A stretch of DNA of 64,000 nucleotides from an uncultured Halanaerobiaceae bacterium (GTDB taxonomy: Bacteria; Bacillota; Halanaerobiia; Halanaerobiales; Halarsenatibacteraceae). Shown here piece after piece: positions 5,441 to 62,121 of the stretch. Both the position numbers and the translations under genes were made by a program. The stretch covers positions 49-64,048 of the forward strand of contig CAYTDP010000003.1 of the NCBI GenBank assembly GCA_964436625.1, read 5' to 3'. A model generated the notes under the pieces. The model was not told the origin of the DNA. It did no database searches and worked only from the letters and a program-made list of their open reading frames with translations. Numbering within the stretch: the first letter of the stretch is position 1; each line of letters opens with the position of its first letter.

Positions 5441-5494
5441 CTTTATCCTCCTCAAAGAGTGAACAATTATCATCATTTCGCAACCAAAAAAAGT

Positions 5495-10072: not shown

Positions 10073-10127
10073 AACTCTGGGCCTCCCTTAACTACCCGGC
10101 CAGGTTTGAATCCGGAGGAGGCCGAAT

Positions 10128-45648: not shown

Positions 45649-45758
45649 TAAAGCAGAGAAAAAATTTCCTTGTGAACTAAGCTTTATATTTTCCAGTATA
45701 ACTAAATACGTTTTTTTGACATCCCTATTTGCCAACTGAAGACAAGAAAATCCTTAAA

Positions 45759-46634
45759 TTATTTCTGAGCTCTCTTCTTACGCCAGTCGAATTTTTTTTG
45801 AGCCAGTCTGTTGGTCTTTTGACAGAATTTATCTTTTTTGCGCCTGGTCTCATAAATCTCCCAGAAACTGCTCATAAAAATATCATCCCATTCCTCTCGA
45901 TACTCGAGCGAGTTTTTATAAAATTTATTCAAAAACTTTCCTTTAAATCGAGCTAAAGCGTGTATTTTAGCCAGTTCAGGCGCTGCGGGAAGGTTAAATA
46001 TATCATCCAGATCTACAAGCACCACCCGGGGATTATCGCGCCAATTTTCCAGAAGGAAATTAGAAGTGCCCGGGTCCTTATGTATAATATTATTGTTTAA
46101 CAGTCTGGCCCATATAAGACCAAATTGACGGAGTATGTCCTTCATATTATTCCTTGCTGCTTCTGGAATTCCTTCATTGATCAATTCAGAACAATCACGA
46201 CAGTTCTGCACCGCCCGAGAAATGAAAACACTGGTATAATCGGCAAATGAATTTCTTTTTACAGCAGAGGCTATCGGCAGAATAGCAGGTATATCCAATT
46301 TATTTAACTTAGAACTCTTTTTGAGCTGAGATAAACCTTCAGGCTCAAAAACTGATTCTTTTAATCGATATAACTTTCTATCATAATCATACCTCTTCAG
46401 GTAAATTTCCCCCAGATTATCAACTGTACATTTGTAAACTTTTATATTTTTATTGCTGGCTGAATTTATTAATTTGAGTTTTGTTTTGTCACCGCTGGAG
46501 CTTTTATCATCAAAAAGAATTCGGTTTAAAACATCAGACAAAACCTTTTTTACAAAGGTGAAATTTGGGTTGTTTTTTATAGGGGCTGAATATATAATTT
46601 CAAATTTATCTGCAAAATCTCTCTTTTTTTTCAT
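45759..46634 (-). CDS. LPS kinase, Kdo/WaaP family
   Basis: IYLKRY, IIHKDPGTSNFLL, VVLVDLDD kinase motifs; located in the LPS locus. Confidence 0.75.
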   Translation of the reverse strand: MKKKRDFADKFEIIYSAPIKNNPNFTFVKKVLSDVLNRILFDDKSSSGDKTKLKLINSASNKNIKVYKCTVDNLGEIYLKRYDYDRKLYRLKESVFEPEGLSQLKKSSKLNKLDIPAILPIASAVKRNSFADYTSVFISRAVQNCRDCSELINEGIPEAARNNMKDILRQFGLIWARLLNNNIIHKDPGTSNFLLENWRDNPRVVLVDLDDIFNLPAAPELAKIHALARFKGKFLNKFYKNSLEYREEWDDIFMSSFWEIYETRRKKDKFCQKTNRLAQKKFDWRKKRAQK

Positions 46635-46685
46635 CTAAAATATTCATTCCTTCATAAAGCCAGATATTGAGGTTATTAAATTCAA

Positions 46686-47462
46686 TCATAAAAACTCGCT
46701 CAACTGACGGGGGCTTGGATTTTTAACATCAATTTCTCTGCTAACTCTCTCGACAAACTTTTCATGCCAGACGTTAACTATCACAGGAATCCTTTCGATA
46801 TTCATTATTTTAGCAAGAGCAAGTCTGTGCCTCCCATCGAGAAAATATATTTCACCATCTCTGCCAACTGCCACTTCAATTTCATTAACAGCACTGCCTT
46901 CTCGCTCATCCTGACTGGAAATTCTATTATCTATCTCTTTTTGAGATTTATAACCATTCAACTTGATTTCTTTATATAACTCTTCGTATTTTCCCAGCTT
47001 TTCTTTTCTATAGCTTTTCCAGTTTCGAGATGAGTTTTTATCTAAGAACCTCAAGTAAAATGAAGTGTCTTTCCAATCTTTACCCTCTGAAAATCTTTTC
47101 TTTAAAGCTGTATAAATATGATTCGCTTGAAATTTATTGCCTTTTTTATCCCAGGAGCCGGGAATTACACAACCTGCTTTTCCATAATATTTGCCATCAT
47201 TATACCTTTTTATATTATGATTTTTGAAGCTGAAGTTATACTGTCTTTTAAACCTCCAGTGGTCCACCTTTAGTAGCTCATATTCGATCTTCTCTGGAGA
47301 TATTTTGATTATGGCTTCAGGCTGATTAACTTTTTCAACTTTTTTAGCAAACTCATCCGGGTTTTCTTGCTTGATAAATTTTAAATAATATCTTCTCACC
47401 TTTCCTTCTGTATAAATCATCCTTTTCACAAAATCTCTATATATTCTATCCTCAGATGACAA
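46686..47462 (-). CDS. ParB/Sulfiredoxin-like fold protein
   Basis: LYKEIKLNGY...IEVAVGRDGEIYFLDGRHRLALAKIMNIERIPVIV. Confidence 0.7.
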   Translation of the reverse strand: MSSEDRIYRDFVKRMIYTEGKVRRYYLKFIKQENPDEFAKKVEKVNQPEAIIKISPEKIEYELLKVDHWRFKRQYNFSFKNHNIKRYNDGKYYGKAGCVIPGSWDKKGNKFQANHIYTALKKRFSEGKDWKDTSFYLRFLDKNSSRNWKSYRKEKLGKYEELYKEIKLNGYKSQKEIDNRISSQDEREGSAVNEIEVAVGRDGEIYFLDGRHRLALAKIMNIERIPVIVNVWHEKFVERVSREIDVKNPSPRQLSEFL

Positions 47463-47585
47463 TTTATTAAATCTCTTAAAAATCAGGCTAAAGATCTATA
47501 ATCCCTCCTTTCCAGAATAAAAAATGGTTAAGTCAGAATATTATTCTCTAAAAATTTAAGCAGTGCTTGCTTAAAAATAGTATTT

Positions 47586-48341
47586 TCATTTTTTTGCAAA
47601 AACTGATAAAGTGCCTATTCCGGCCCTCCTTTGCCCTTTCTTTTGCCTGTATTTTATTTTCAATAGCTTCCTCATTCTTTTTTCTGAGATATTTTCTTCT
47701 TTTTCTTTAGAATGCTTAAATTCGAACTGACTGTAATCTCTATTTTTTAGTTCATCAATAAATTCGTCGGGGGCTATCGTACGATTACTATCTTTCATAT
47801 ATCTGTATGGATGCATTTCTGCTATAATTTTTTCTGGGTCAAAATTTATCTTATTTAAAATTTTCATTTCAGCACCCTGACAGTCCATAAACAAAACATT
47901 ACAATAATCTAAATCTTGAGGATTCTTTACTTCAAATGTTTCATTTTCTGTGTAAACTTCAATTCCCGGACCAACTATTTTTTGCTGTAATTGACATATT
48001 TCTTCAACACGATTGATCTTTAAAGTATTATTTATTCTATCGAACATTTCAGGACTTCCCTCAAATATTATCACCTGACCTTGAGATCCGGCTTGCCTTG
48101 CTGCAACTACACTCGAAACCCCTCTTCCTCCTCCAATTATAACCACTCTTTCTTTATTTTCTACATATTTTCTTATAAAACTAATATAGTGCCACTTATA
48201 ATCAGGTTTATTAGGGGATAATTTATCAGGCAGAAAATTAAAATTCTTTTTAGGCGCAGAACTTTCAGGAACCTTCACTTCGTTATATATTGCATATCTG
48301 CCTTCAGGCAATAATTTCCATACCAGCTCTTTAAATTTCAT
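47586..48341 (-). CDS. FkbM-like SAM-dependent methyltransferase
   Basis: VVIIGGGRG motif I, IFEGSP, LFMDCQGAE. Confidence 0.7.
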   Translation of the reverse strand: MKFKELVWKLLPEGRYAIYNEVKVPESSAPKKNFNFLPDKLSPNKPDYKWHYISFIRKYVENKERVVIIGGGRGVSSVVAARQAGSQGQVIIFEGSPEMFDRINNTLKINRVEEICQLQQKIVGPGIEVYTENETFEVKNPQDLDYCNVLFMDCQGAEMKILNKINFDPEKIIAEMHPYRYMKDSNRTIAPDEFIDELKNRDYSQFEFKHSKEKEENISEKRMRKLLKIKYRQKKGQRRAGIGTLSVFAKK

Positions 48342-48392
48342 ATAACTCCGCTCCTATTTTTGTAAACCACAAAAGTATTGGGCTAATCTGTG

Positions 48393-49193
48393 TTAAAAAC
48401 AAGATATTTTTTCCTCGAGTTCAACCGCCGGTTTAATAGCTGTTTCAGGAGTGATTTCATCTATGTCAATGTTTTTTTTAATCCAATTTATGTATTTTTT
48501 ATGCCAGGCCACCACTAATACGGGCATTATATCCAAACCAAGAACATGAGCAAGGGCGTACCTATGATGTCCTTCATGGTGAGCTTTAACAATTTTGCCT
48601 TCGCGGGTTACTACTACAGCTACATCCCTGAGCATTTTTGTGGTGGCAATTTCAGAATTCCTCTTCAAACCTTCTTTTTTTATCTTTTTATGCAATTTAT
48701 CCACGCCGGCAGTTATATTTTGCAGGCGTTCATTATCAAATTCTTTTTCCCCCTCAAGAAAATAATAAGGGGTATTTTCCCAATTCCTGTCCTGTAAAAA
48801 TCTTTGCTTAATGCCTAAAATCTTCGCATAGTGAAACTTATTGTTCTTATCTTTTTCCAGATCATAGTTTTCAGCAGAAAGATCATCAAATTTTACTGGA
48901 GTTAATTCTTCATCCCATTCTCCCCCCAGGATAAATCCCACTTTTATTCTTTTACTGGGAAATCCTCTCGGTCTTCTCTCTTTAACTATCTTCTTCAAAT
49001 ATCTATGCTTGTAGGGGGAATAATGTACTTTTTTTGTAGGAACATAAATTACCTGAAATGGATCTTTTATGACTTTACCTGAAAAATGAGAGATAATTTC
49101 AAGATATTTTTTGTCGGCCTTTTTATCCATTTTTTTTAATGATTCCGGAAAGAATTCATCATACTTCTTCTTGACTTCAGAAAGAAACCCCAA
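48393..49193 (-). CDS. ParB/Sulfiredoxin-like fold protein (paralog of 46686-47462)
   Basis: ILGGEWD, WENTPYY, KIKKEGL, VAVVVTREG...EGHHRYALAHVLGLDIMPVLV. Confidence 0.65.
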   Translation of the reverse strand: MGFLSEVKKKYDEFFPESLKKMDKKADKKYLEIISHFSGKVIKDPFQVIYVPTKKVHYSPYKHRYLKKIVKERRPRGFPSKRIKVGFILGGEWDEELTPVKFDDLSAENYDLEKDKNNKFHYAKILGIKQRFLQDRNWENTPYYFLEGEKEFDNERLQNITAGVDKLHKKIKKEGLKRNSEIATTKMLRDVAVVVTREGKIVKAHHEGHHRYALAHVLGLDIMPVLVVAWHKKYINWIKKNIDIDEITPETAIKPAVELEEKISCF

Positions 49194-49234
49194 TTAAATC
49201 GTCCCCTTTTCCAGACTTTAATCTTGCTTTGAAT

Positions 49235-50401
49235 CTAAGAAAAAATTTTTTCGAGAAATTGCATAACTTTTTCCGCTCTCTTATCCCAGAGAAAATTTTC
49301 TGCTCTAGCAAATATATTTTCTCTTATATTTTTATAGAGTGTTTTATTTTTATCGAGTTTATTTATGCAATCAGTTAATTCCTCTTCCGAATTGTAAAAT
49401 AAGCCGCAGTCTTTAGAAATAACGTCGAGAGTTGCCGGGGTCTCAGTGCTCACAATAGGTATTCCATAACTAAAATAATCAAATACCTTAACTGGAGACG
49501 TAAGATAATTGTTGAAATAATTATCCGCCAGCGGCACCACGCCAATTTTAGCCTTCTTTAAGTGCTTAGTGATTTTTTCCTGAGACACCCACCCTGTAAT
49601 TTCTACTCTATCTTCAAGATTCATTTCTCTTGAGTAATTTTCAATTTTTTTATATAACTCTCTTGTTTTGCCACCGACTATCTTCAATATTAAATTTTTA
49701 TTATCTGCGTTTTTAAAAGCTTTGATCAATTCATAAATGTTTTTTCTATCATCCAGCGAGCCTATATATAAAATTTCATCGTTGGTCCATGTATCAATAT
49801 CATAATTAATTTTTTTCAAACCGGTTCTTGCCATCATTATATTCTGCTCTGGAAATTTTTCTGAATATAAATTGCGCAATATATTCTGATGAACTAAAAT
49901 CCCGTCAATCCTGGCAAGAAAAATTTTATGATAAAAATATTTTTTTAAGCCTTTATTTCTCTCAGACCTGTTGAGATAATAATCGTGAGCTTCAAAAAAT
50001 GTTTTCGCCTGATCTTTTTTTCTTAGAAAACTTAAAAAAGGCAGAAAGCCATCAGTCCGGGTTATAATAGCAAAATTTTCTCCATCATTCTTTTTTAAAA
50101 GTTTTTTTATCTGCCGGTAGGCAGAAATATAGAATGAAGTGCTTATGTCTGGCAGTTTATCATTTTCAATTCTCAAAACGATCAAGTTTTCGGGCTTCTT
50201 GATATCAAAATAATCCCTTATAGCTTTATTAATGTTTTCACCTTCATCCTCTTCAATAAGCAGATAAACCTCAATATCACTCCTTTTTTTGGCCAGAGCA
50301 TTAAGGGAATGGATAACAAAGTTTATACCGGGACTGTGATCATTAATTTTAGACCTATATACGTAAATTACATTCAAACACATCACCTCTTCTGGACTCA
50401 A
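49235..50401 (-). CDS. Glycosyltransferase family 4
   Basis: YIGSL..RK, SPVKVFDYFSYGIPIVST. Confidence 0.88.
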   Translation of the reverse strand: MSPEEVMCLNVIYVYRSKINDHSPGINFVIHSLNALAKKRSDIEVYLLIEEDEGENINKAIRDYFDIKKPENLIVLRIENDKLPDISTSFYISAYRQIKKLLKKNDGENFAIITRTDGFLPFLSFLRKKDQAKTFFEAHDYYLNRSERNKGLKKYFYHKIFLARIDGILVHQNILRNLYSEKFPEQNIMMARTGLKKINYDIDTWTNDEILYIGSLDDRKNIYELIKAFKNADNKNLILKIVGGKTRELYKKIENYSREMNLEDRVEITGWVSQEKITKHLKKAKIGVVPLADNYFNNYLTSPVKVFDYFSYGIPIVSTETPATLDVISKDCGLFYNSEEELTDCINKLDKNKTLYKNIRENIFARAENFLWDKRAEKVMQFLEKIFS

Positions 50402-50525
50402 ACTCTGAAAATTATAACCTCATTTACCGCTTAATGCAAGAGATTTCCTCACAGCTTTCCTGGGGATTAATTCTTGATTAAAATTTGTCCCTTATTTCTT
50501 CTGCAGGTTGGGAAGCAAACTTATA

Positions 50526-51635
50526 TTATAATATCAACTTCTCAATCTCTTTTATGACTTTTGCTCTGCTATAATTATCTTCAACAAAGCTCCTCGCATT
50601 TTCTATAACATCCGACAAATCTCGATCTTTTAGCTCCAGTATTTTAGATGCAAATTCTGAAGGATTTAAAGAATCTACAAGATAACCATTTTTCCCATTC
50701 TCGATTATTTCCGCTATGTTGCTTTTGTCTGCTGCTATCACTGGCGTTCCTGCAGCCATACTCTCGATGAGTACATATCCAAAACCCTCCCAGCGGGCCG
50801 GATGAACTAAAAAATCAAATTCAGCCATCAATTGGTAAACTCTGGACTGCTCCTGATAACCCAAAAACAAAATTTTCTCCTCCAGACCCAAATCGACAGA
50901 CATCTTTTGCAGCTCATCATTTAATTCTCCATCCCCAATAATCAATATCAAAAAGTCATTAAAATCATAATTCTCGAGTTCTCTGGCTGTTTTCAACAAA
51001 ATATCCTGCCCTTTTTGTTCTGTAAGCCTCCCAACATTGCCGAGAATCAACTTATCCTCATGTTCGATATCAGGATAACTTTCCAGCAGAGAGTTAGCTT
51101 TAGAAATACTTTTATCAACATCCTGAATTTTCAGGCCATTAGGTATAACTGCTATTTTGTCAGGATTCAGCCATTCCCTGGTATTTTTTAAAATCGACTT
51201 TTTTGTGGATTTAGAGTTAGCTATAATATTAGTTGTCATTTTATTTAACAACAATTTGTTATAAAATCTATTTTTTATCGGCCTGTCCAGACCTCTTCTG
51301 TAAATAATCTTTTCTAACCCGGCCAAATTTCCAGCTGCACACCCAAATTTCAGATCTCTGGATAAATTCATAAACAAACCATCGATAGAGGCACGTGTAA
51401 GAAATCTGGCCAATTTTAAAACTTTAACAGGATTTAGCGAAGAAATTCCAGACTTTACTTTTACAGCTCGAGTAGTTATTCCAGCCCCTTTAGCTTTTTT
51501 TAAAAGTGGAGCTCCCGGCAGGCCCCCAATATAAACATCGTGTCCCCTGTTGTCAAGCTCCCGGGCGGTGTCCAGAGTCCACTTTTCTCCACCACCCCAG
51601 AATCCACAGGAATTTAAGAAAAATAATTTTCCCAA
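50526..51635 (-). CDS. Glycosyltransferase family 4
   Basis: WGGGEK, VGRL..QKG, EGFGYVLIESMAAG. Confidence 0.9.
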   Translation of the reverse strand: MGKLFFLNSCGFWGGGEKWTLDTARELDNRGHDVYIGGLPGAPLLKKAKGAGITTRAVKVKSGISSLNPVKVLKLARFLTRASIDGLFMNLSRDLKFGCAAGNLAGLEKIIYRRGLDRPIKNRFYNKLLLNKMTTNIIANSKSTKKSILKNTREWLNPDKIAVIPNGLKIQDVDKSISKANSLLESYPDIEHEDKLILGNVGRLTEQKGQDILLKTARELENYDFNDFLILIIGDGELNDELQKMSVDLGLEEKILFLGYQEQSRVYQLMAEFDFLVHPARWEGFGYVLIESMAAGTPVIAADKSNIAEIIENGKNGYLVDSLNPSEFASKILELKDRDLSDVIENARSFVEDNYSRAKVIKEIEKLIL

Positions 51636-51672
51636 ATCAAATCTCTCCTGAATTCATTCTATTTTACTGTAA

Positions 51673-52431
51673 TTATTCATGGTTGTCATTAAAATAAAAT
51701 TTTTTCTTAGCTTCCCATAGCTTGGCGTATTTTAAAAACTTATTTATGGCCGAAAGCATACAAAGTATCAAACCAGCACTTCCATCTAAAAAACCTTTCT
51801 GCAAAAAATATTTTTTAATGAACTCAATTTTTGGTCTTAATATTACCTGAATTAGATTTATATTTCTGCTGCTTTTTTCAATTTCCAGGCTGGTATAATG
51901 ATTTATTTTGCTTACATAATCATCGAGATTGCTGTAAGTAAGATGTATGAGAGGATTTTCCAGCCTGCCGCACTCCCCCTCATAAGTCAAATCTTCATGA
52001 ACTTCTCCTTCATACCTAAGCTCATCACTGTTTTTGAATAATCTTATAGTATAATCAGGGTACCAGCCGCAATGTTTTATCCAGCTGCCCAGAAAAAAAT
52101 TTTTGCGAGGAATTTTATAAACAGGAAAATCTCCATCATTGTTTAGCAAATTTTTAACTTCTTCAGCTAAAACTCCGGGAATACGTTCGTCGGCATCAAG
52201 AATCAAAATCCAATCCGACTCTATTTTCTCCAGACCATAATTGCGTTGAGATGAAAAATCATCAAATTCACGCTGATAAATTTTCCTGGTGTAATCATTA
52301 CATATTTCAAGTGTATCATCATCACTATAGGAATCAACTACCACAATTTCATCAACCCAGCTCAGGGATTCCATACATTCCTCAATCACGTTTTCTTCAT
52401 TATAAGTTAAAACCAGGGCCCCCAGTTGCAA
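51673..52431 (-). CDS. Glycosyltransferase family 2 (WaaE/KdtX/LgtF-like LPS core glucosyltransferase)
   Basis: TYNEE, VVDSYSDD, QRNYG, WILILDADE, WYPD, VHE; start moved to TTG 52431 with RBS. Confidence 0.9.
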   Translation of the reverse strand: MQLGALVLTYNEENVIEECMESLSWVDEIVVVDSYSDDDTLEICNDYTRKIYQREFDDFSSQRNYGLEKIESDWILILDADERIPGVLAEEVKNLLNNDGDFPVYKIPRKNFFLGSWIKHCGWYPDYTIRLFKNSDELRYEGEVHEDLTYEGECGRLENPLIHLTYSNLDDYVSKINHYTSLEIEKSSRNINLIQVILRPKIEFIKKYFLQKGFLDGSAGLILCMLSAINKFLKYAKLWEAKKKFYFNDNHE

Positions 52432-52468
52432 TAAAACCCATCCCCTTCCCAGAATTTCAGCTGTTGAT

Positions 52469-53347
52469 TTATTCGATGCCGAGCTTTTCAGCTTTGTCCT
52501 TTTCATTCGGTGAAAAGCGAATTAGAAATAACTCTTTTAAAATTTTAGTCGGATACAAATCCAGTTCAGCTGCCTTCCAGTTCTCTATATTTTTTAAATC
52601 CAAAAACTGTTGATGTTTTGATACCGAGAGTCTATTCATGCTTTTCCGGGTATCATAAAGTATAATTGGGATTTCTTTATAATCCATGGCTGCCAGAGCA
52701 GCCGCTCTTCTGCGCCCGCCTGAAATCAAAACTTTAAAGTCACTGTTTTTTTTCAAAATAATGCCCTGAATATAGGTAGAGTTGATGGTAGTCTCGTCCT
52801 CAGGCCGGTATCCTTTTTCCCGCAGGCTTTCGTAAAAATTCTTCAGAGAAAAATAGTCGTCTTTCCTCGGATAAAAAGATTTTTCTGCAAAATAGTAGTT
52901 GTGATAGTAATTTGAAATTGAAGTTTTTTTGGAGCTGGAGCCAGGATTGATCCAGTTTCTGGGAACACAAATAGGTGAACTTAAGGCTGGAGCATCTCCA
53001 TTTATTCCTTCAGGTATATACTTTTCAAGTTTGAGCCCTTCCCATTCGGAAACAATTTGTTCTGGCTCCGGTTCATCCACCAGTTCAGAAATTTTAATTT
53101 TAATTTTTGCAATCAAAGACTCTGAATAATTTTTGTCAAGGCCGTGTTTGAATCTAAGGGTTTGAGCAACGTAAGGATTGAATTTAGAGAGGCTAAACCC
53201 CCCCAGGCCTCCCATGCCTATCAGACAGCGTTCAACAGGAAAATAAAAAACATTTTTCTTAACCCTGGCAACACCGTTTATTTTTCTTATTATATTTTTT
53301 ATTTTTTCTCTCAATCGTAATCTCAAATCGGAGATTATTTTCACCAC
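52469..53347 (-). CDS. Divergent ParB/Sulfiredoxin-like fold protein
   Basis: FYESLREKGY...IQGIILK...VLISGGRRRAAALAAMDYKEIPII. Confidence 0.55.
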   Translation of the reverse strand: MVKIISDLRLRLREKIKNIIRKINGVARVKKNVFYFPVERCLIGMGGLGGFSLSKFNPYVAQTLRFKHGLDKNYSESLIAKIKIKISELVDEPEPEQIVSEWEGLKLEKYIPEGINGDAPALSSPICVPRNWINPGSSSKKTSISNYYHNYYFAEKSFYPRKDDYFSLKNFYESLREKGYRPEDETTINSTYIQGIILKKNSDFKVLISGGRRRAAALAAMDYKEIPIILYDTRKSMNRLSVSKHQQFLDLKNIENWKAAELDLYPTKILKELFLIRFSPNEKDKAEKLGIE

Positions 53348-53367
53348 CTGTTTTTAAGATATTGTAT

Positions 53368-54477
53368 TCAGCGGTTTAGTAAAATTTTATTTTCAATATC
53401 ATCTATCATCTTTTGGGTGGTGTATTTCTCTTCAGCTATCTCGGCCGCCTTTTCTCCCATCCTCTCTCTGTTTTCATTTTTTATCATTTTAATGACCTTT
53501 TCCGCAATGTCTTCCGGATTCCTATCTTCAGCTATATACCCTGTTTCCCCATCTTTTACGAATTCCTGAACCGTCATTGCCCTGGTTGAAACTATTGGCA
53601 CTCCGGTCATCATAGCCTCCAGTATAATCCATGGACACCCTTCATAAACAGCAGTATGAACTAAAAAATCAATTTGTTTCAATATCGAGGGAACATCTTC
53701 TCTATAACCTGTGAAAATTACCTTATCTTCGATACCAAGTTCTTTAGATTTTTCTTTGTATTTTTCCCGTTTTCCGCCCTTTCCTACAAATAAAATTTTT
53801 ATATCCTCATGAAAATCCAAAATTTTTGGAAGGGCTTCTATTAAATATTGCTGGGCTTTTTGGCGGGAAAGCCGTCCTATATTGGCTACAACCATTTCGT
53901 CAGAGGAAATATCAAATTCTTCTCTTATATTTGTTTCAATGGAAGAATCTATATATATTTCTGGATCCACCCCATTATAAATTAATTTAATTTTTTCATC
54001 TTCTACAACATCATCAGGCAGCTGACTTAGATTTGACTTCATGGTATTTTTTGAAATTGACATAAAATCAGTTACACAATTTTTCAATAACCAGCGATTA
54101 TAAAACCTGTTATTTATAGCTTTTGCTATGGCTCTGCGGTACACTATTTTTTCGACCCCTGCCAGTTTACCTGCCAGGGAACCGTATTTGTAATGAGAAG
54201 ATTGCCCGGCAAAAATAGCGTTAATATTATTATTCTTTAAATACTTTACCAGCCATAAGAGTCTTTTGGGGTTTATAAAAGTGGTGGTCTCAATTCGACT
54301 GGTAGCAGCAACCTCAAATCCGGCCTTTTCACATTCTCTTTTGAACTGAGTATCATGCCTGGCTATAACAAAAATATTATAACCTCTATCCTGTAAATGA
54401 GTAGCTGCCTTATAATGCCATTTTTCCAGCCCAGCCCAGCCGGTTCCAGTGTTCATGAAAAGCAGATTATTCACCAT
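53368..54477 (-). CDS. Glycosyltransferase family 4 (paralog of 50526-51635)
   Basis: WAGLEKW, IGRL..QK, EGCPWIILEAMMTG. Confidence 0.9.
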   Translation of the reverse strand: MVNNLLFMNTGTGWAGLEKWHYKAATHLQDRGYNIFVIARHDTQFKRECEKAGFEVAATSRIETTTFINPKRLLWLVKYLKNNNINAIFAGQSSHYKYGSLAGKLAGVEKIVYRRAIAKAINNRFYNRWLLKNCVTDFMSISKNTMKSNLSQLPDDVVEDEKIKLIYNGVDPEIYIDSSIETNIREEFDISSDEMVVANIGRLSRQKAQQYLIEALPKILDFHEDIKILFVGKGGKREKYKEKSKELGIEDKVIFTGYREDVPSILKQIDFLVHTAVYEGCPWIILEAMMTGVPIVSTRAMTVQEFVKDGETGYIAEDRNPEDIAEKVIKMIKNENRERMGEKAAEIAEEKYTTQKMIDDIENKILLNR

Positions 54478-54547
54478 ATAAAAGAAAACCCCTTTGTCCA
54501 GGTAGTAAATAGATGATAAATTGAGAAGTATTCCAGATAATCCGGCC

Positions 54548-55738
54548 TTAAATACTCATTGAATCCTTTTTAATATAAACTCCCTGAAGAGCAAACCCCA
54601 GCCCTATCAAAGCCCAATAAAAGTTGCGAGTCTGTGACTCAGTTATATTGTTTTCAAATAAGCCAGCAATTAGAAAAGCAACTAAAGCCAGCATTATACC
54701 TAAAAAGATTGCTGAATCAAACCCATCTTCACTGATTTTTCGTCGGCTGGTTTTATAAAAGTTCCTCAGCAGCAGAAAGTTAAGATAAATAAAGATAGCT
54801 CCTGCCGGTATCCCCAGCTCCGTGGCGAGGTTGAAATAACTGTTGTGAGGACTGGATCTGGTATCCTGGCCCTCCTCGTAGATGTAATCGGGATAATAAG
54901 TGCCGAAGTTTTCAAATCCGACTCCCCGCAGTGGATAATCACGCATCATATCAACAGAAGAACGCCACATATCTATTCTGACTTCATCCTGCCATTCATA
55001 AATAATGCTCATAAATTCATCCTGAACTCCCACCGGAAGGATGAGAAAAAAAATCATCAACCCAACCAGGATTAAAGGAATCATTTTGGGCTTCTTGATC
55101 AGGGTAAAACATCCCACCACTCCTAAAAAAGCCAGATATGCACCTCTGGCATGAGAAAAAGCCAGGGCTGTGACATTTAAGAGCAATGAAAGAGATACTG
55201 CAATCTTAAACAGTATTGTTTTTCCTTTGACAAATAAAAGGGGCAATAGCAGACCAACTCCCATGGCGGTTACATTACCCTTAGTAAGATTGAATCTGGC
55301 CATTCCCTGAGGTCTATTCGATCCCAAAATCAAGAATTCATAATTAGCTATAATAGCTGATACTGTCAACACGAAAAGCGTTAAACCTATTATTCTGTAT
55401 ATCGTTTTTTTGGTTTTGATTTCATTAGCTATAGCCAGAGGAAAAGCTATACTGTAAAAAGTACCTGTTCCCAGTGCTATCAAAGGTGAGCTCGGGGAGA
55501 AAAACATCAATAACATCAAAGCCAGAAAAGGCCAGTATGGCAGAGGTCTGTTGAAATCGAAATCTCTATTTTTTATCAGATCTATAAGCCAGGCCAGCAG
55601 CAAAAAACCCACTCCAAAACTGATCAAAGACCTGCCGGCATGCGATCCCAGAGCATAAACATACATTCCGAATACAGCCAGTTTTTCCGTGGACATTAAA
55701 CTGCTTCTCAAAGCTGACAGATTTGACTTTAACTGCAA
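54548..55738 (-). CDS. waaL: O-antigen ligase (WaaL/Wzy_C family)
   Basis: Multi-TM protein with ARGAYL, RIDMW...PLRGVG and PHNSY motifs. Confidence 0.85.
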   Translation of the reverse strand: MQLKSNLSALRSSLMSTEKLAVFGMYVYALGSHAGRSLISFGVGFLLLAWLIDLIKNRDFDFNRPLPYWPFLALMLLMFFSPSSPLIALGTGTFYSIAFPLAIANEIKTKKTIYRIIGLTLFVLTVSAIIANYEFLILGSNRPQGMARFNLTKGNVTAMGVGLLLPLLFVKGKTILFKIAVSLSLLLNVTALAFSHARGAYLAFLGVVGCFTLIKKPKMIPLILVGLMIFFLILPVGVQDEFMSIIYEWQDEVRIDMWRSSVDMMRDYPLRGVGFENFGTYYPDYIYEEGQDTRSSPHNSYFNLATELGIPAGAIFIYLNFLLLRNFYKTSRRKISEDGFDSAIFLGIMLALVAFLIAGLFENNITESQTRNFYWALIGLGFALQGVYIKKDSMSI

Positions 55739-55762
55739 ATTGTTTTCCTCCTCGACCCGCTA

Positions 55763-56596
55763 TTAAAAATTAAAAAACTTCTTTAACGATTTTTTAAACC
55801 TGCTTTTTTTATGATTTCTCTGTATATACTTTTCTAATCTCTCAACATCATCGCTATAATGCAGCAAAAATAAATTCTCATCATGTTCATGGATTCTCAG
55901 TTTATATAAATCCCGGGCTCTTTTTTTCAGACTCAAATTCTCCCTTATCTTCGCCCTGTTAAAATCTATCAAATATATCTCAAAATCATCTTCTGAAGAT
56001 AATTTTAACTGAATATTTTTTGGCTGCAGATCTGAATAAAAAATTCCGGCATCATGAATCTTTCTAACTTTTTCAGCCAGTCTGATTACAACTCTGTTCT
56101 TGAAAGAGTCAGAGAAATTCTCACGATAAATATCGTATAAATTAAAATCGAAGTTCTCTTTTAAATAAAGATAATGAGAATTTATAAGTTTGTTTTTTGA
56201 GCCCCTGAATTCTACAGCTCCGAAGGGAACAGGAACATTTATGCCTAATTTATTGAGCATAAGCGATATCCTGAAAGATCTCAGGGCTCTGGATTTTATA
56301 AATCGGAACCTCAGGTTATCATACAAACCATGCTGCCCAAATCTCTTTACGGCTAACTCCTTAGTCTCCGAAACTTTTACCTGAAAGATTTTTATGGTAT
56401 TACGAGAATTTAGGTTCAATACCTCTCCTGCCGTCTCATAATTCATAAGCCTATCGATTAAATACTCGAGAAACTGCGGTTTTATGATGACAGGCTTTTC
56501 CCGGTTTAGAAAAAACCTGATCTCAATACCATTTCTTTGCTTCTCAGTTGAAAAAATTTTCTCCCTGAAAAAAGCCTCCGGATCCTCCTTCAACAT
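55763..56596 (-). CDS. LPS kinase, Kdo/WaaP family
   Basis: LAVKRF, IHDAGIFYSDLQPKNI, IYLIDFNRA. Confidence 0.82.
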   Translation of the reverse strand: MLKEDPEAFFREKIFSTEKQRNGIEIRFFLNREKPVIIKPQFLEYLIDRLMNYETAGEVLNLNSRNTIKIFQVKVSETKELAVKRFGQHGLYDNLRFRFIKSRALRSFRISLMLNKLGINVPVPFGAVEFRGSKNKLINSHYLYLKENFDFNLYDIYRENFSDSFKNRVVIRLAEKVRKIHDAGIFYSDLQPKNIQLKLSSEDDFEIYLIDFNRAKIRENLSLKKRARDLYKLRIHEHDENLFLLHYSDDVERLEKYIQRNHKKSRFKKSLKKFFNF

Positions 56597-56641
56597 AAAC
56601 AGTTCAGCTCCTAAAATTTCACTCCACCGGTTTAGATAAAC

Positions 56642-57505
56642 TCACTCTTTAAAAGAGTGCAAATTGCTGTTTTTATCGATGAGATGATGAAGCTCCCATT
56701 TCTTAAGTCTGCTGCAAACCTGTGCCATTATATCTTCAATTAGACAGTAAGGATCGTCATACAATCTATTCAGAATTTTTTTCAGCAGCTTCAATTTCTC
56801 TTCATATTCCATTTTGGTTTCGCGAGCATAAATTATAGCAATCAATTTGGATAAATTCTTCTTCATAAAATAAGCAGGCAAAACAGGATATTTTTTAACA
56901 TTATCCAGATCTATCAGCACTAAATCCCGGCTCTCTGAATTATCTGTAAGAAAAAAATTTGATAAAGACGGGTCTCCATTGACAAATTTATTATCCAGCA
57001 TGCGCGCGTAATTTTCCGCCAATAAATCTATGACTTTACCTCTCCTTTCAAAATCTTCGACGTTGTTAAAAAAGAATTCAAGATCTGTACCTGAAACCGA
57101 AGCTGAAACAGTCAAGCTCTTTTTCAGAAAAATGTTCTCAGAAAATTCACCGGCAAAAATAACTGGAAGGGCGTCGACTCCGATTTCATCTAAGTTTTTC
57201 ATGACCCCGACAACTCTTCTGGCCTCAGCCTGTCTAAAAATATTTCTCAATCTTCTTTTCCAGTTTTTGTCCGCATACTTTTTGATAAAATAAGTTTTTT
57301 TATTCAAGTCCCATCTGTAAACTTCATGCCCTTTATCGGCTTTAATTTTTTCTAAACAGCCTTCGAAGACATTCCTGGCATTATTCTCGTTCTCCGAAAA
57401 GCCAACATCTATAATCTCCTGGAGGTTATTGACCAGTCTAGATCTTTTTATCTTTTTAACTTGAGAGGAAGTATATGTCCATTTAAAAACACTCATAAGT
57501 ACCAT
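56642..57505 (-). CDS. LPS kinase, Kdo/WaaP family
   Basis: YFIKKY, FVNGDPSLSNFFL, LVLIDLDN. Confidence 0.75.
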   Translation of the reverse strand: MVLMSVFKWTYTSSQVKKIKRSRLVNNLQEIIDVGFSENENNARNVFEGCLEKIKADKGHEVYRWDLNKKTYFIKKYADKNWKRRLRNIFRQAEARRVVGVMKNLDEIGVDALPVIFAGEFSENIFLKKSLTVSASVSGTDLEFFFNNVEDFERRGKVIDLLAENYARMLDNKFVNGDPSLSNFFLTDNSESRDLVLIDLDNVKKYPVLPAYFMKKNLSKLIAIIYARETKMEYEEKLKLLKKILNRLYDDPYCLIEDIMAQVCSRLKKWELHHLIDKNSNLHSFKE

Positions 57506-57539: not shown

Positions 57540-58616
57540 CTATCTTAATATATTTTCAATCTGATTGAGCACTTCTTCCGGCTGGATTTCTTCCAGGCAG
57601 CGATGATGATCGAGCGGACAGTTGTGCTCACCGCAGGGACGACAATCAACATCATTATTTAAAATTTGCGCTCTATTCCCGGAAGCATAGGGGCGATATT
57701 TTTTTTCATCGCTAGGTCCAAAAAGTGTCACCTGAGGAGTACCGGCCAGTGCCGCCACATGAGCTGGTCCAGTATCACCGCTGACAGCAGCATCAGCCCG
57801 GGTCATCAAAGCCAGAAGTTCAGGAATCGAAGTTTTGCCGGCGGCCTGGAAAATTGAATCAGAACCGAAGTTTTCTGCTTTATTCAATATACCGCGAGCA
57901 ATTTCCTCGTTTCTTTTTATGTCGCTTTCTCCCCCGGTAATTACTATTTTCGCGTCCAAACGGGTCAATACCTGCCTGCCCAGACCGATAAATTTCTCAA
58001 CCGGCCAGCGTTTGCTCGGCCAGCTGCCGCCGGGATTCAAAACCAGCAGATTGCCTCTCCACTCAGAGGAAAAACTGTCATCCAGCATCTTTTTAATGCT
58101 TTCCCGGGCTGAGTCTGGCGGTTTTATCCCGGGGAGGCCAGCGTTTTCAGGCAGTTCCAAACCCAATTCATTCAGCCAGCGCAGCTGATATTCGACAATA
58201 TGTTTCTTTTGCGGGTTCCAGGTTCTGGCATAATCCAGAAACAGACCCTGGAAAGTGCTGCTCTCACGGGTATATCCGATCCTGACTCCGGTAGAAGCCG
58301 CCCGCTGAAAAAGCAGACTTCGCCAGCTTCCGTGAACATTAAGACTAAAGTCGTATTTTATTTTGCGCAGCTCACCTGCGGCAGTCGCCGCTTCCTGCCA
58401 GCCGGACCTTTTGTTATAAGGTATCAGATGATCGATAAAATCTGCCCCCTCCAGCAGATTTATAAAGGGATCAAGAGCCAGAAGATGAAGTTCTTTTTGC
58501 GGGCATTGTCGCTTTAGTTCCTGAATAAGCGGCAGAGAAAAGACCAGATCTCCCAGATAAAGGAGATTTATCACCAGAACCTGATCGGCGGCTTCAAACT
58601 CTTCAGGAAAATTCAT
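57540..58616 (-). CDS. Glycosyltransferase family 9 (heptosyltransferase, WaaF-like)
   Basis: YLGDLV, PGGSWPSKRW, DTGPAHVAA, LFGP; start re-assigned to ATG 58616. Confidence 0.9.
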   Translation of the reverse strand: MNFPEEFEAADQVLVINLLYLGDLVFSLPLIQELKRQCPQKELHLLALDPFINLLEGADFIDHLIPYNKRSGWQEAATAAGELRKIKYDFSLNVHGSWRSLLFQRAASTGVRIGYTRESSTFQGLFLDYARTWNPQKKHIVEYQLRWLNELGLELPENAGLPGIKPPDSARESIKKMLDDSFSSEWRGNLLVLNPGGSWPSKRWPVEKFIGLGRQVLTRLDAKIVITGGESDIKRNEEIARGILNKAENFGSDSIFQAAGKTSIPELLALMTRADAAVSGDTGPAHVAALAGTPQVTLFGPSDEKKYRPYASGNRAQILNNDVDCRPCGEHNCPLDHHRCLEEIQPEEVLNQIENILR

Positions 58617-61038: not shown

Positions 61039-61136
61039 TGGCGTCCAAACATCCCCCTGGCATCCAGGTTAAAAAATAGTGCTTCCTTCGCGAAAGCTCT
61101 TCCCTGAATTTGAAAAATTTCCAGTATCACTTCGCT

Positions 61137-62048: not shown

Positions 62049-62121
62049 CCAATTTCAATAGCTTTTCCTCTTTCTTTTAGTTAATTTTATAACGTCCACC
62101 AGTCGATAGATGAGCCGCTAA

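What the first reader, a model, noticed from the sequence alone, without database searches (positions are those of the whole stretch)
46686..53347. Three ParB/Sulfiredoxin-fold proteins embedded in an LPS-core glycosylation locus: candidate new class of envelope-glycan modifying enzymes
Seen: ORFs 46686-47462, 48393-49193 and 52469-53347 share a core of (L/F)xxx(I/L)xxxG(Y/L)...hydrophobic strand...G-x-x-R-x-A-x-(A/L)...(I/M)P(V/I). The first two also share IPGSWD/LGGEWD, WKDTSFY/WENTPYY and VWHEKF/AWHKKY. They are interleaved with GT4, GT2, FkbM and kinase genes. No parA gene or obvious C-terminal HTH was recognised. Established: the ParB/Srx fold binds NTPs, and several members are phosphotransfer enzymes rather than partition proteins (sulfiredoxin, the serine kinases SerK and SbnI). 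Inference: these may be nucleotide-dependent kinases or activators acting on sugars, nucleotide-sugars or core substituents, which would be an uncharacterised LPS-tailoring module.
Basis: partly seen in the sequence, partly recalled or inferred. Interest (0 to 1): 0.8.

Follow-up and report, generated by a model that had tools for sequence, protein, structure and literature searches.

The report
ParB/sulfiredoxin-fold proteins of glycan loci
Two of the three flagged genes belong to a large, unnamed family found in bacteria and archaea: it has the nucleotide-binding ParB/sulfiredoxin fold, sits almost always in surface-sugar gene clusters and is often fused to a methyltransferase, so it is probably an unrecognised sugar-decorating enzyme; the third gene is a rarer, more distant relative.

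Summary
ORF1 (46686-47462) and ORF2 (48393-49193) are paralogues (27% identity, E=7e-17). ORF3 (52469-53347) shares only the core motif (hhalign 76%, E=2e-5).

A confident AlphaFold model of ORF2 (pLDDT 86) matches only ParB/Srx-fold proteins in the PDB and BFVD, best SbnI (2.5 A over 67 columns). ORF3's model failed; its profile hits Noc/ParB at E~0.01.

The ORF1/2 profile finds 2,586 cluster representatives. None of 98 sampled matches Pfam or NCBIfam. In 69 genome loci from bacteria and archaea, the 234 nearest ORFs include 24 GT4, 18 Wzx flippases, 14 GT2 and about 10 methyltransferases; ParA-type families are not among the commonest.

About 17% of family genes are fused to one SAM-methyltransferase subfamily, and one to GT2. 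Paralogue arrays reach five copies.

The window is the LPS core locus of a soda-lake Halarsenatibacter relative. Its low-GC outer-core cassette is hypervariable, yet all three genome variants keep both protein types.

The invariant Box II GxxR arginine and about a dozen conserved polar residues point to a nucleotide-dependent tailoring enzyme. Phosphotransfer is the leading guess; no result here tests the chemistry.

This is a new functional variant of a known fold.

The parts
46686..47462 (-). ORF1, 258 aa. Canonical member of the large glycan-locus ParB/Srx-fold family; keeps essentially all family-conserved positions.
   Evidence: Local hmmsearch with the A3 family profile gives E=1e-64.
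46824..46838 (-). ORF1 Box II P-motif, D-G-R-H-R (GxxR with the invariant Arg213).
   Evidence: Translation. The Arg is 100% conserved and the His 97% conserved in 98 family members. The motif aligns to DGVHR of SbnI.
47586..48341 (-). FkbM-type SAM methyltransferase gene lying between the two paralogues. It is a probable functional partner, by analogy with the frequent methyltransferase fusions in the family; the fused methyltransferase is a different subfamily.
   Evidence: TIGR01444 fkbM_fam 38.4 bits (cut-off 37.7) and Pfam Methyltransf_21 E=1.7e-4. Fusion statistics.
48393..49193 (-). ORF2, 266 aa from a TTG start (the database call starts at an inner ATG, 245 aa, giving 48393-49130). Divergent member of the same family (Y176L, E190D). 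The ParB/Srx core consists of a beta-hairpin at residues 49-58 plus residues 154-231, interrupted by an insert of about 95 residues that carries GxWD and WExTxYY.
   Evidence: AF2 pLDDT 86; Foldseek against the PDB and BFVD; conserved positions; database gene call.
48561..48575 (-). ORF2 Box II P-motif, E-G-H-H-R.
   Evidence: Translation; alignment.
52469..53347 (-). ORF3, 292 aa from a GTG start (database aa). Member of a narrow, lineage-specific family found only in the window and two related Halanaerobiales genomes. It has a probable ParB-like core at about residues 165-235 (GY loop, strands, GRRRAA, EIPI).
   Evidence: Profile against the PDB: Noc E=0.009, plus ParB. Pfam ParB_N E=0.14; NCBIfam Noc 0.0095 and parB_part 0.027. 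The AF2 model failed.
52706..52720 (-). ORF3 Box II-like motif, G-G-R-R-R, aligned to GERRwRA of Noc.
   Evidence: Translation; alignment.
45759..46634 (-). WaaP/Bud32-like kinase gene adjacent to ORF1. Its orthologues lie next to or near ORF1/2- or ORF3-family genes in the related Halanaerobiales core loci.
   Evidence: NCBIfam Bud32, weak. 47% and 39% identical orthologues in L003 and L001. A 31% relative lies directly upstream of the family genes in Fuchsiella L077.
49235..52506 (-). GT4 (49235-50401), GT4 (50526-51635) and GT2 (51673-52506): outer-core glycosyltransferases between ORF2 and ORF3.
   Evidence: Pfam.
53368..57505 (-). GT4 (53368-54477), Wzy_C/WaaL-like ligase (54548-55738), Kdo-kinase/WaaP-like (55763-56596) and WaaP-like (56642-57505).
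57540..63967 (-). Conserved inner-core and lipid A genes that anchor the locus: heptosyltransferase II (57540-58751), WaaA-heptosyltransferase I fusion (58603-61038), LpxL-like (61140-62078), KdsD/KpsF (62125-63120) and KdsA (63134-63967).
   Evidence: NCBIfam; synteny and tblastn against L001 and L004.

Best explanation
ORF1 and ORF2 are two paralogues of a large, unnamed family of about 250-residue proteins found in both bacteria and archaea. Each is a single ParB/sulfiredoxin-fold nucleotide-binding domain. It has the Box I helix and loop (LxxLYxxIKxxGYK) and the Box II P-motif (D-G-x-H-R). An insert of about 95 residues carries further invariant polar residues (GxWD, WExT).

The family has no DNA-binding domain and no ParA partner. 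It is dedicated to glycan-assembly gene clusters. ORF3 is a distant, lineage-specific relative built on the same core (GRRR in Box II).

In this genome all three sit in the hypervariable, low-GC outer-core cassette of the LPS locus of a Halarsenatibacter relative.

The most likely mode of action is as follows. Each protein binds a housekeeping nucleotide (ATP or CTP) through Box I and II, at the cytoplasmic face. It then transfers a group to a specific sugar of the lipid-linked core oligosaccharide. Phosphate is the most plausible group, as in the ParB/Srx-fold enzymes SerK, SbnI and sulfiredoxin. This would work in series with a SAM methyltransferase, here the FkbM gene between ORF1 and ORF2 and elsewhere a fused domain.

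What is shown: fold (ORF2), family size, glycan-locus association, methyltransferase and GT2 fusions, paralogue arrays, and retention of the nucleotide-binding arginine.

What is inferred: nucleotide binding, catalysis, phosphotransfer, the acceptor, and coupling to methylation. My confidence that these are nucleotide-dependent glycan-tailoring proteins is about 0.6. My confidence that the chemistry is specifically phosphorylation is about 0.35.
For: Fold:
- AF2 model of ORF2: pLDDT 86, pTM 0.83.
- All top-50 PDB Foldseek hits are ParB/Srx superfamily. Best local fit is SbnI (probability 0.97, rmsd 2.5 A, 67 columns, 27% identity); SerK gives 2.6 A over 65 columns.
- Named BFVD hits are nearly all ParB/Sulfiredoxin.
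- The family profile against PDB sequences hits SbnI over DGxHR...IPV (E=0.026).
- UniProt auto-name for one member is 'ParB/Sulfiredoxin domain-containing protein'.

Family size: 2,586 representatives at E<=1e-3 and 1,317 at E<=1e-10 among 1.84 billion cluster representatives.

Active-site-like conservation across bacteria and archaea: R211 and P224 are 100% conserved. W93, D94, W138, T141, Y176, E190, R197, H210 and H231 are each 91-99% conserved. ORF1 keeps all of them and ORF2 nearly all. In the fold survey, Box II GxxR arginine is required for NTP binding, and ParB-fold-SAM-methyltransferase fusions bound ATP (PMC12704722).

Context: in 69 loci, the 234 nearest ORFs include GT4 24, Wzx flippase 18, GT2 14, SAM methyltransferase about 10, plus Wzy_C, ABC transporters and NDP-sugar enzymes. 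Individual contexts agree.

Fusions: 22 of 130 family segments are fused to one methyltransferase subfamily. The same methyltransferase type is the immediately adjacent separate gene in L078, L024 and L091/92. There is also one GT2 fusion.

Paralogue arrays of up to five copies per cluster, as expected for acceptor-specific tailoring enzymes.

Retention: both protein types are kept in three very divergent versions of the Halarsenatibacter-type core cassette, and the ORF1/2 type also in Fuchsiella.

No dedicated donor-synthesis gene appears among the commonest neighbour families. This fits a housekeeping nucleotide as co-substrate.
Against: - No biochemical or genetic data exist for any member.
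- Foldseek E-values are individually weak (0.04-1), because only about 70-90 of 266 residues superpose.
- No member reaches E<=0.01 against Pfam ParB_N.
- ORF3's fold is unverified: AF2 pLDDT 34 and profile E about 0.01 only.
- The locus already encodes three WaaP/Kdo-kinase-type kinases, so additional kinases are not obviously needed.
- One member is fused to a P-loop kinase-like domain (sub-threshold AAA_18). That would be redundant if the ParB-like domain were itself a kinase.
- In the fold survey, 17 of 28 purified ParB-fold proteins showed no NTP binding in vitro (PMC12704722).
- The fused methyltransferase domain resembles generic class I methyltransferases, not WbdD's.
- No transcript data could be found.
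Confidence: 0.55

Rival explanations
1. Non-catalytic nucleotide- or pyrophosphate-binding module. The ParB/Srx-like domain would act as an NTP-gated switch or adaptor, or bind the pyrophosphate of the undecaprenyl/dolichyl-linked acceptor. It would thereby recruit, position or regulate the true tailoring enzymes (methyltransferase, GT2, kinase) on the lipid-linked glycan.
For: The same domain is fused to three different catalytic partners: SAM methyltransferase, GT2 and a P-loop kinase-like domain. This is what a shared targeting or regulatory module would look like. The canonical role of the fold in ParB, Noc and KorB is a nucleotide switch, not an enzyme acting on a second substrate (PMC12704722). 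The window already has three conventional kinases.
Against: Most members are stand-alone proteins of about 250 residues, often in arrays of two to five paralogues. About a dozen polar residues outside Box II are 91-99% conserved from archaea to bacteria, including in the family-specific insert (D94, T141, Y176, E190, R197, H231). That pattern is more typical of an active site.
Confidence: 0.22
2. A nucleotide-dependent tailoring enzyme with chemistry other than O-phosphorylation. Options include activation of a sugar carboxylate (Kdo or uronic acid) as an acyl-phosphate for amidation or esterification, analogous to sulfiredoxin phosphorylating an oxyacid. Others are nucleotidyl or phospho-alcohol transfer from a CDP-activated donor, or action on an NDP-sugar before glycosyl transfer.
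For: The fold binds ATP, CTP or GTP depending on the member (PMC12704722). Sulfiredoxin, a top structural hit, phosphorylates a sulfinic acid (established knowledge). NDP-sugar enzymes (epimerase/dehydratase, nucleotidyltransferase, C-methyltransferase) are among the neighbours. The presence of three WaaP-type kinases in the window makes a different chemistry for ORF1-3 economical.
Against: No consistent co-located donor-synthesis gene (for example CDP-alcohol synthesis) among the commonest neighbour families. No amidotransferase or ligase partner was seen. The two solved small-molecule enzymes closest in local structure, SbnI and SerK, are O-kinases.
Confidence: 0.18
3. Not glycan-related. 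On this reading the genes are ParB-like DNA-binding, nuclease or mobile-element genes that hitch-hiked into a horizontally acquired low-GC island.
For: The cassette is low-GC (33-38% against about 50%). ParB-like nuclease domains are common on mobile elements, and BFVD hits are phage ParB-like proteins. Some homologue loci contain IS elements.
Against: No HTH or nuclease domain. ParA-type families are not among the commonest neighbours of 69 loci, although only the top 25 families were listed. No defence-system model hit. The low GC is a property of the whole outer-core cassette in all three related genomes, including its GT and kinase genes. The genes are co-directional with short gaps inside a 15-gene LPS cluster. 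Fusions are to GT2 and to the methyltransferase subfamily found in glycan clusters.
Confidence: 0.03

Closest known systems
SbnI (Staphylococcus) and SerK (Thermococcus) free L-serine kinases, which are ParB/Srx-fold enzymes
   Same: Best local structural matches to the ORF2 model: SbnI 2.5 A over 67 columns with 27% identity, SerK 2.6 A over 65 columns. They share the D-G-x-H-R...IPV Box II region (NCBIfam SbnI E=0.005). Neither has an HTH or a ParA partner, and both are nucleotide-dependent small-molecule enzymes. The acidic residue before the Box II Gly is kept (D in ORF1, E in ORF2); from my own recollection this is SbnI Asp58, important for activity, which I did not verify here.
   Different: No similarity outside the roughly 70-residue core. 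SbnI and SerK have a C-terminal helical substrate domain that is absent here. This family instead has an insert of about 95 residues with GxWD and WExTxYY motifs inside the fold. The genomic context is glycan assembly, not cysteine or siderophore metabolism. Scores are far below the SbnI model cut-off (16 against 350 bits).
Canonical ParB, Noc and KorB CTPase DNA clamps
   Same: The same N-terminal fold with a Box II GxxR motif. ORF3's GRRRAA...EIPI aligns to GERRwRA...EIPA of Noc (E=0.009).
   Different: No HTH DNA-binding domain, no C-terminal dimerisation domain, no ParA-interaction motif, no recognisable Box III, no parA neighbour, and below Pfam PF02195 detection.
Sulfiredoxin (Srx)
   Same: A single-domain use of the fold as an ATP-dependent phosphotransferase, and a top Foldseek hit.
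   Different: The catalytic Cys of the Srx G-C-H-R motif is replaced by R, H or K (GRHR, GHHR, GRRR). The proteins are about 2.5 times larger. The context is glycan, not peroxiredoxin repair.
ParB-CTPase-fold fusions to SAM-dependent methyltransferases, reported as ATP binders in the 2025 fold survey (PMC12704722)
   Same: Architecture of a ParB-like domain plus a class I SAM methyltransferase (Methyltransf_23-type). It shows that such a fusion can bind ATP through Box II.
   Different: That survey collected members with PF02195 at its gathering cut-off. None of 98 members of this family reaches even E<=0.01 against Pfam, so these are most likely different proteins. The survey interprets its methyltransferase fusions as nucleic-acid related and mentions no polysaccharide or LPS context.
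WbdD of E. coli O9a (a kinase plus methyltransferase that caps O-antigen with methyl-phosphate). This is an analogy of logic only.
   Same: A nucleotide-dependent domain fused to a SAM methyltransferase in a glycan pathway. It offers a precedent for 'phosphorylate, then methylate the phosphate' (PMC3482155).
   Different: WbdD's kinase has a eukaryotic-like protein-kinase fold, not ParB/Srx. The fused methyltransferase here does not retrieve WbdD from the PDB. Most family loci are Wzx/Wzy-type rather than ABC-transporter-type.

Membership tests
ParB/Srx (ParB-CTPase) fold superfamily | Three-dimensional core fold (strand, Box I helix-loop, two strands, Box II helix, IPV strand) | tested here: met
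   For ORF2: AF2 pLDDT 86; all top-50 PDB hits and nearly all named BFVD hits are ParB/Srx proteins. ORF1 inherits this by clear family membership.
ParB/Srx (ParB-CTPase) fold superfamily | The same core fold in ORF3 | tested here: inconclusive
Sequence evidence is only borderline: profile against the PDB gives Noc E=0.009 and ParB E about 1; Pfam ParB_N E=0.14 and NCBIfam Noc 0.0095; hhalign to the ORF1/2 family gives 76%.
ParB/Srx (ParB-CTPase) fold superfamily | Box II P-motif GxxR with the phosphate-binding arginine | tested here: met
   DGRHR (ORF1), EGHHR (ORF2) and GGRRR (ORF3). The Arg is 100% conserved in 98 family members. Motif definition from PMC12704722.
ParB/Srx (ParB-CTPase) fold superfamily | Match to Pfam PF02195 (ParB_N) at the curated threshold | tested here: not met
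   ORF1 and ORF2 have no hit; ORF3 scores 12.6 bits against a cut-off of 26.3. 0 of 98 family members reach E<=0.01. This is a failure of sequence-model sensitivity, not of the fold.
ParB/Srx (ParB-CTPase) fold superfamily | Binding of a nucleoside triphosphate | not testable with these tools
   Needs DRaCALA, ITC or co-crystallisation with wild type and the Box II R-to-A mutant.
Canonical ParB partition / Noc / KorB DNA clamps | Central HTH DNA-binding domain and C-terminal dimerisation domain | tested here: not met
   No HTH or ParB_C Pfam hit. The ORF2 model ends about 35 residues after the core with short helices only.
Canonical ParB partition / Noc / KorB DNA clamps | Partner parA gene or parS context | tested here: not met
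   No ParA-type gene in the 15-gene cluster. ParA-type families are not among the commonest neighbour families in 69 loci; only the top 25 families were listed.
SerK/SbnI free serine kinases | Full-length match including the C-terminal substrate-binding domain | tested here: not met
   NCBIfam SbnI scores 16 bits against a cut-off of 350, covering the core only. Foldseek aligns 64-68 columns of chains about 240 residues long.
Sulfiredoxin | Catalytic cysteine in the G-C-H-R motif | tested here: not met
   That position is R (ORF1), H (ORF2) or R (ORF3), and R/K/N/Q/H across the family.
WbdD-type kinase-methyltransferase chain terminators | Protein-kinase-fold kinase domain and a WbdD-like methyltransferase domain | tested here: not met
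   No kinase-fold hit in ORF1-3. The fused methyltransferase half retrieves PH0226 and UbiG-like methyltransferases from the PDB, not WbdD. Only the functional logic is comparable.
Glycan-locus ParB/Srx-like family (defined here, alignment A3) | Full-length profile match with GxWD, WExT, GYK, E...R.G and DGxHR...IPV..WH motifs | tested here: met
   ORF1 E=1e-64 and ORF2 E=3e-51 against the A3 profile. ORF1 keeps every strongly conserved position except L218M; ORF2 also differs at Y176L and E190D. ORF3 is not detected by this profile, so it is not a member.

The most novel reading that the evidence does not exclude
The most novel reading is that this would be the first carbohydrate-directed enzyme family built on the ParB/sulfiredoxin fold. 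It would be a pan-prokaryotic set of ATP- or CTP-dependent glycan kinases, or related group-transferases, that decorate LPS cores, O-antigen and EPS repeat units and archaeal glycans. The methyltransferase-fused forms would make methyl-phosphate-type substituents, as a convergent counterpart of WbdD. The multi-copy arrays in halophiles would supply the dense negative surface charge typical of these organisms.
Probability: 0.3. Interest if true: 0.85.

Novelty: new variant of a known kind. Interest (0 to 1): 0.7.

Why it matters
The ParB/Srx fold is known from DNA-segregation clamps and a handful of small-molecule phosphotransferases. A family with thousands of sequence clusters, dedicated to surface-glycan gene clusters in both bacteria and archaea, would add a new substrate class (carbohydrates) to the fold. 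It would also add a new enzyme class to glycan biosynthesis.

The family is invisible to Pfam and NCBIfam, so it is annotated 'hypothetical' in O-antigen, EPS, LPS-core and archaeal glycosylation clusters. Structural glycobiology of these organisms often reports non-carbohydrate substituents whose enzymes are unknown.

The family gives a concrete, testable candidate. Members exist in cultured organisms, including Halorubrum vacuolatum (five copies), Natronococcus, Haloferax profundi, Halanaerobium hydrogeniformans and Fuchsiella. The Box II arginine offers an obvious inactivating control.

It also shows that surveys of the fold based on PF02195 miss a large branch.

Tried and rejected
1. AlphaFold of ORF3 with its only three homologues gave pLDDT 34 and was unusable. 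Both prediction jobs were then spent, so ORF3's fold stays unverified.

2. The word-indexed homologue search was nearly blind to the family: ORF2 found only itself and the A3 profile found 10 proteins. The exhaustive HMMER search was needed.

3. The search for related loci with the 98-sequence alignment failed for lack of a conserved stretch. A tighter 11-sequence alignment worked. This biases the sampled loci toward relatives with HRL[SAV][IM]AKIL or [IV]PVIVN[VIL]WH, so halophiles are probably over-represented.

4. WbdD analogy. I tested whether the fused methyltransferase domain, or the window's FkbM protein, retrieves WbdD from PDB sequences. Neither does; only generic class I methyltransferases appear. 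The analogy is kept as logic only.

5. Defence-system (PADLOC) models gave no meaningful hit, so a defence role is rejected.

6. The promoter and terminator scan was uninformative. Terminator-like sites were at chance level (14 against 13.8 expected) and promoter-like hits were AT-rich noise.

7. No RNA runs hold the locus, so there is no expression evidence.

8. HMM-to-sequence searches do not connect ORF3 to the ORF1/2 family in either direction. Only the profile-profile comparison does. I therefore do not file ORF3 in the same family.

9. The SbnI paper (PMC5912478) is not held. Statements about the catalytic residues of SbnI and SerK rest on my own recollection.

10. Literature searches for ParB-like proteins in O-antigen, capsule or archaeal N-glycosylation contexts found nothing relevant.

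11. No matched random-locus control was run for the neighbourhood census. The enrichment claim rests on my general knowledge that GT4 and Wzx genes are each well under about 1% of prokaryotic genes, against about 10% and 8% of neighbours here.

Full report
**1. What is in the sequence**

The three ORFs exist on the minus strand exactly as reported:
- ORF1: 46686-47462, 258 aa.
- ORF2: 48393-49193, 266 aa.
- ORF3: 52469-53347, 292 aa.

They lie in a run of co-directional genes with short gaps. Pfam, NCBIfam and synteny identify this run as an LPS inner- and outer-core locus. The gene order is:
- KdsA, KdsD, LpxL-like
- a WaaA-heptosyltransferase I fusion, then heptosyltransferase II
- two WaaP/Kdo-kinase-like genes
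- a Wzy_C/WaaL-like ligase, then GT4
- ORF3
- GT2, GT4, GT4
- ORF2, an FkbM methyltransferase, ORF1
- a third WaaP/Bud32-like kinase

The segment from about 45.7 to 57.5 kb is 33-38% GC, against about 50% in the flanks.

**2. Is the shared motif real?**

ORF1 and ORF2 are clear paralogues: 27% identity over 183 columns, E=7e-17. ORF3 is not significantly similar to either in pairwise comparison.

A profile-profile comparison of the ORF1/2 family with the ORF3 family does align them.

It matched 21 of 5,640 six-frame segments (910 k residues) from the window and 86 loci. All 21 are in these two families, and in the window it hits only the three ORFs. The qualification is that it concerns two families, not one.

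**3. Fold**

The first AlphaFold job used ORF3 with its only three homologues. It failed with pLDDT 34.

The second job used ORF2 with a 98-sequence alignment. It gave a confident model with pLDDT 86 and pTM 0.83.

Foldseek against the PDB returned only ParB/Srx-superfamily structures in the top 50: sulfiredoxin, SbnI, SerK, ParB, Noc, KorB, PadC and Atu1540. The best local fits were SbnI (probability 0.97, rmsd 2.5 A, 67 columns, 27% identity) and SerK (2.6 A, 65 columns). E-values are modest (0.04-1) because only about a third of the protein superposes. The unanimity of the hits is what carries the weight. The viral library independently gave almost only 'ParB/Sulfiredoxin' proteins.

At sequence level, the family profile hits SbnI over DGxHR...IPV with E=0.026. 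The ORF3-family profile hits Noc (E=0.009) and ParB, with GRRRAA...EIPI aligned to GERRwRA...EIPA. For ORF3 alone, Pfam ParB_N gives E=0.14 and NCBIfam Noc/ParB give E=0.01-0.03.

A recent survey of the fold (PMC12704722) defines Box I as a helix and loop that contact the base. It defines Box II as GxxR, whose arginine is needed for NTP binding.
- '(L/F)xxx(I/L)xxxG(Y/L)' is the Box I helix and loop.
- 'GxxRxA' is Box II.
- 'IPV' is the following strand.

The secondary structure of the model suggests an interrupted domain. The beta-hairpin at residues 49-58 would be the first element of the fold. Residues 60-153 would be a family-specific insert carrying GxWD and WExTxYY. This is my inference from the DSSP string, because I had no access to coordinates.

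**4. The ORF1/2 family**

An exhaustive HMMER search with the two-paralogue profile was run against 1.84 billion cluster representatives. It found 2,586 proteins at E<=1e-3 and 1,317 at E<=1e-10, most about 230-300 aa long.

None of 98 sampled members matches any Pfam model at E<=0.01 or any NCBIfam model at E<=1e-3. Sources call them 'hypothetical'. The one exception is a UniProt automatic name, 'ParB/Sulfiredoxin domain-containing protein', for a Halanaerobium hydrogeniformans member.

Conservation is striking for a family spanning bacteria and archaea:
- R211 and P224 are invariant.
- W93, D94, W138, T141, G175, Y176, E190, R197, G199, G208, H210, H231 and P249 are each 91-99% conserved.

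ORF1 keeps every one of these positions; its only change among strongly conserved columns is L218M. ORF2 additionally has the conservative changes Y176L and E190D. Both therefore look functional.

**5. Genomic context of the family**

A genome scan returned 78 loci from Halanaerobiaceae, Sumerlaeota, many Halobacteria, Nanohaloarchaea, Bathyarchaeia, Thermoplasmata, Dehalococcoidia, Gammaproteobacteria and others. The search patterns bias this sample toward close relatives.

I called ORFs crudely and sent the two nearest on each side through Pfam: 234 ORFs from 69 loci. The commonest families were:
- GT4: 24
- Wzx-type flippase (Polysacc_synt): 18
- GT2: 14
- class I SAM methyltransferases: about 10
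- Wzy_C, ABC transporters, NDP-sugar epimerase/dehydratases, nucleotidyltransferases and NeuB

ParA-type families were not among the commonest; only the top 25 families were listed in each call.

Loci with precomputed annotation agree:
- A Natronococcus member lies beside Wzx, GT2 and GT4.
- Another member lies beside an NDP-sugar epimerase.
- Further members sit in Wzx/Wzy or Wzz/ABC clusters.
- The H. hydrogeniformans member sits in an IS-riddled EPS cluster.

I ran no matched control. GT4 and Wzx at about 10% and 8% of neighbours are far above the sub-1% genome-wide frequencies I know for these families.

**6. Fusions and arrays**

Many members are 380-470 aa long, with the family domain at the N-terminus and a class I SAM methyltransferase at the C-terminus. 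This was seen in 7 of 10 and then 4 of 10 long proteins tested.

A local HMM of that methyltransferase domain finds it fused in 22 of 130 family segments, across 21 loci. It is also the immediately adjacent separate gene in L078, L024 and L091/92. One member is fused to GT2. One is fused to a sub-threshold P-loop nucleotide-kinase-like domain.

In the window, an FkbM methyltransferase gene lies between ORF1 and ORF2, which echoes the fusion. It is a different methyltransferase subfamily, so this is only suggestive.

About 24 loci carry two to five full-length paralogues, including five within 7 kb in Halorubrum vacuolatum. This is the pattern of acceptor-specific tailoring enzymes such as glycosyltransferases.

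**7. The ORF3 family and the local comparison**

ORF3 has only two relatives in 5.8 billion proteins, at 43-46% identity. One is from Halarsenatibacter silvermanii and one from a Halanaerobiaceae MAG. Both sit in the syntenic core locus.

The window's flanking genes are nearly identical to those of H. silvermanii: ArgRS 97.7%, thioredoxin 100%, CTP synthase 97.7% and GH65 84%. The cassette genes are far more diverged: ORF3 44%, kinases about 39% and Wzy_C 28%. The cassette is low-GC in all three genomes. This is a serotype-like hypervariable outer-core cassette.

Each variant nevertheless keeps one ORF3-type and at least one ORF1/2-type gene. Fuchsiella alkaliacetigena has two tandem ORF1/2-type genes next to a WaaP-like kinase in its core locus. 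The locus is present in several soda-lake metagenomes. No RNA runs were found.

**8. Mechanism**

The following points are shown:
- a ParB/Srx core with an intact Box II arginine;
- no DNA-binding module;
- dedicated glycan context;
- recurrent fusion to glycan-type catalytic domains;
- an active-site-like set of conserved polar residues.

The following is inferred. The proteins bind ATP or CTP and modify a sugar of the lipid-linked glycan on the cytoplasmic face. Phosphotransfer is the leading candidate for three reasons. The solved non-clamp members of the fold (SerK, SbnI, Srx) are all phosphotransferases. No donor-synthesis gene is among the commonest neighbour families. Kinase-plus-methyltransferase has a precedent in WbdD (PMC3482155).

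Several points weigh against this:
- three conventional kinases already sit in the locus;
- one member is fused to a P-loop kinase-like domain;
- the fused methyltransferase does not resemble WbdD's;
- many ParB-fold proteins fail to bind NTP in vitro.

The main rival is a non-catalytic nucleotide- or pyrophosphate-binding adaptor shared by different tailoring enzymes. A second rival is different nucleotide-dependent chemistry, such as carboxylate activation, phospho-alcohol transfer or action on an NDP-sugar. A mobile-element or DNA-related role is very unlikely.

**9. Comparison with what is known, and novelty**

The proteins are members of the ParB/Srx fold superfamily: ORF1 and ORF2 as tested here, ORF3 probably. 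They fail the defining features of canonical ParB, Noc and KorB (no HTH, no ParA). They fail those of sulfiredoxin (no Cys) and of SerK/SbnI (no C-terminal domain).

The 2025 survey of the fold used PF02195 at its gathering threshold, so it could not have captured this family. It mentions no polysaccharide context. Literature searches found no study of ParB-like proteins in glycan clusters.

The fold label itself is not new, because UniProt auto-annotates at least one member. What appears new is the recognition of four things together: a very large family that is specific to glycan loci, its methyltransferase and GT2 fusions, its paralogue arrays, and its conserved insert. I rate it a new functional variant of a known fold, with interest 0.7.

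Noticed in passing
window 58603-61038 (-): An 811-aa single ORF fuses Kdo transferase WaaA (residues 8-427) with heptosyltransferase I (residues 436-800). The fusion is conserved in Halarsenatibacter silvermanii (814 aa) and the Halanaerobiaceae MAG (807 aa). In E. coli, waaA and waaC are separate genes (my own knowledge).
   Followed up: partly
window about 45700-57500, against L001 about 4500-11700 and L003 about 4800-10500: A hypervariable, low-GC (28-38%) outer-core cassette sits between highly conserved flanks (66-100% aa identity outside, 28-58% inside) in three related genomes. It resembles a serotype-style replaceable LPS cassette in Halanaerobiales, which are Gram-negative-type Firmicutes.
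   Followed up: partly
window 45759-46634, 55763-56596, 56642-57505 (-): Three WaaP/Kdo-kinase/Bud32-like kinase genes lie in one core locus. Two are barely recognisable by curated models (E 1e-5 to 1e-4). The 45759 type lies next to or near ParB/Srx-like genes in the related loci (directly adjacent in L003 and Fuchsiella L077, separated by Wzy_C in L001).
   Followed up: partly
L035 7770-14438 (Halorubrum vacuolatum DSM 8800): Five full-length paralogues of the ORF1/2 family lie within 7 kb. L029 and L065 have four each. This is a cultured organism that would suit genetic tests.
   Followed up: partly
L093 1-2335 (Halanaerobium hydrogeniformans CP002304): A TPP-enzyme, a nucleotidyltransferase and an Fe-alcohol dehydrogenase form a trio at the edge of the EPS cluster holding the family member. 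The combination looks like phosphonate (phosphonopyruvate decarboxylase-type) decoration genes. The cluster is interrupted by at least seven IS fragments.
   Followed up: no
L087 2792-3658 and 10587-12287: The polysaccharide cluster with a family-methyltransferase fusion also encodes a sulfotransferase and a fused ATP-sulfurylase/APS-kinase (PAPS synthesis). That glycan is probably sulfated as well.
   Followed up: no
window 43213-45576 (-) and syntenic loci: A GH65 glycoside phosphorylase gene directly abuts the LPS core cluster in all three related genomes. Whether it is functionally linked or merely adjacent is unknown.
   Followed up: no
window 52469-52506: The longest ORFs of ORF3 and the downstream GT2 overlap by 38 nt. 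The H. silvermanii GT2 orthologue is 38 aa shorter (239 against 277 aa), so the GT2 start is probably further downstream and the overlap is an artefact of taking the longest ORF. Similarly, HepII (57540-58751) overlaps the WaaA-HepI ORF by 149 nt.
   Followed up: no
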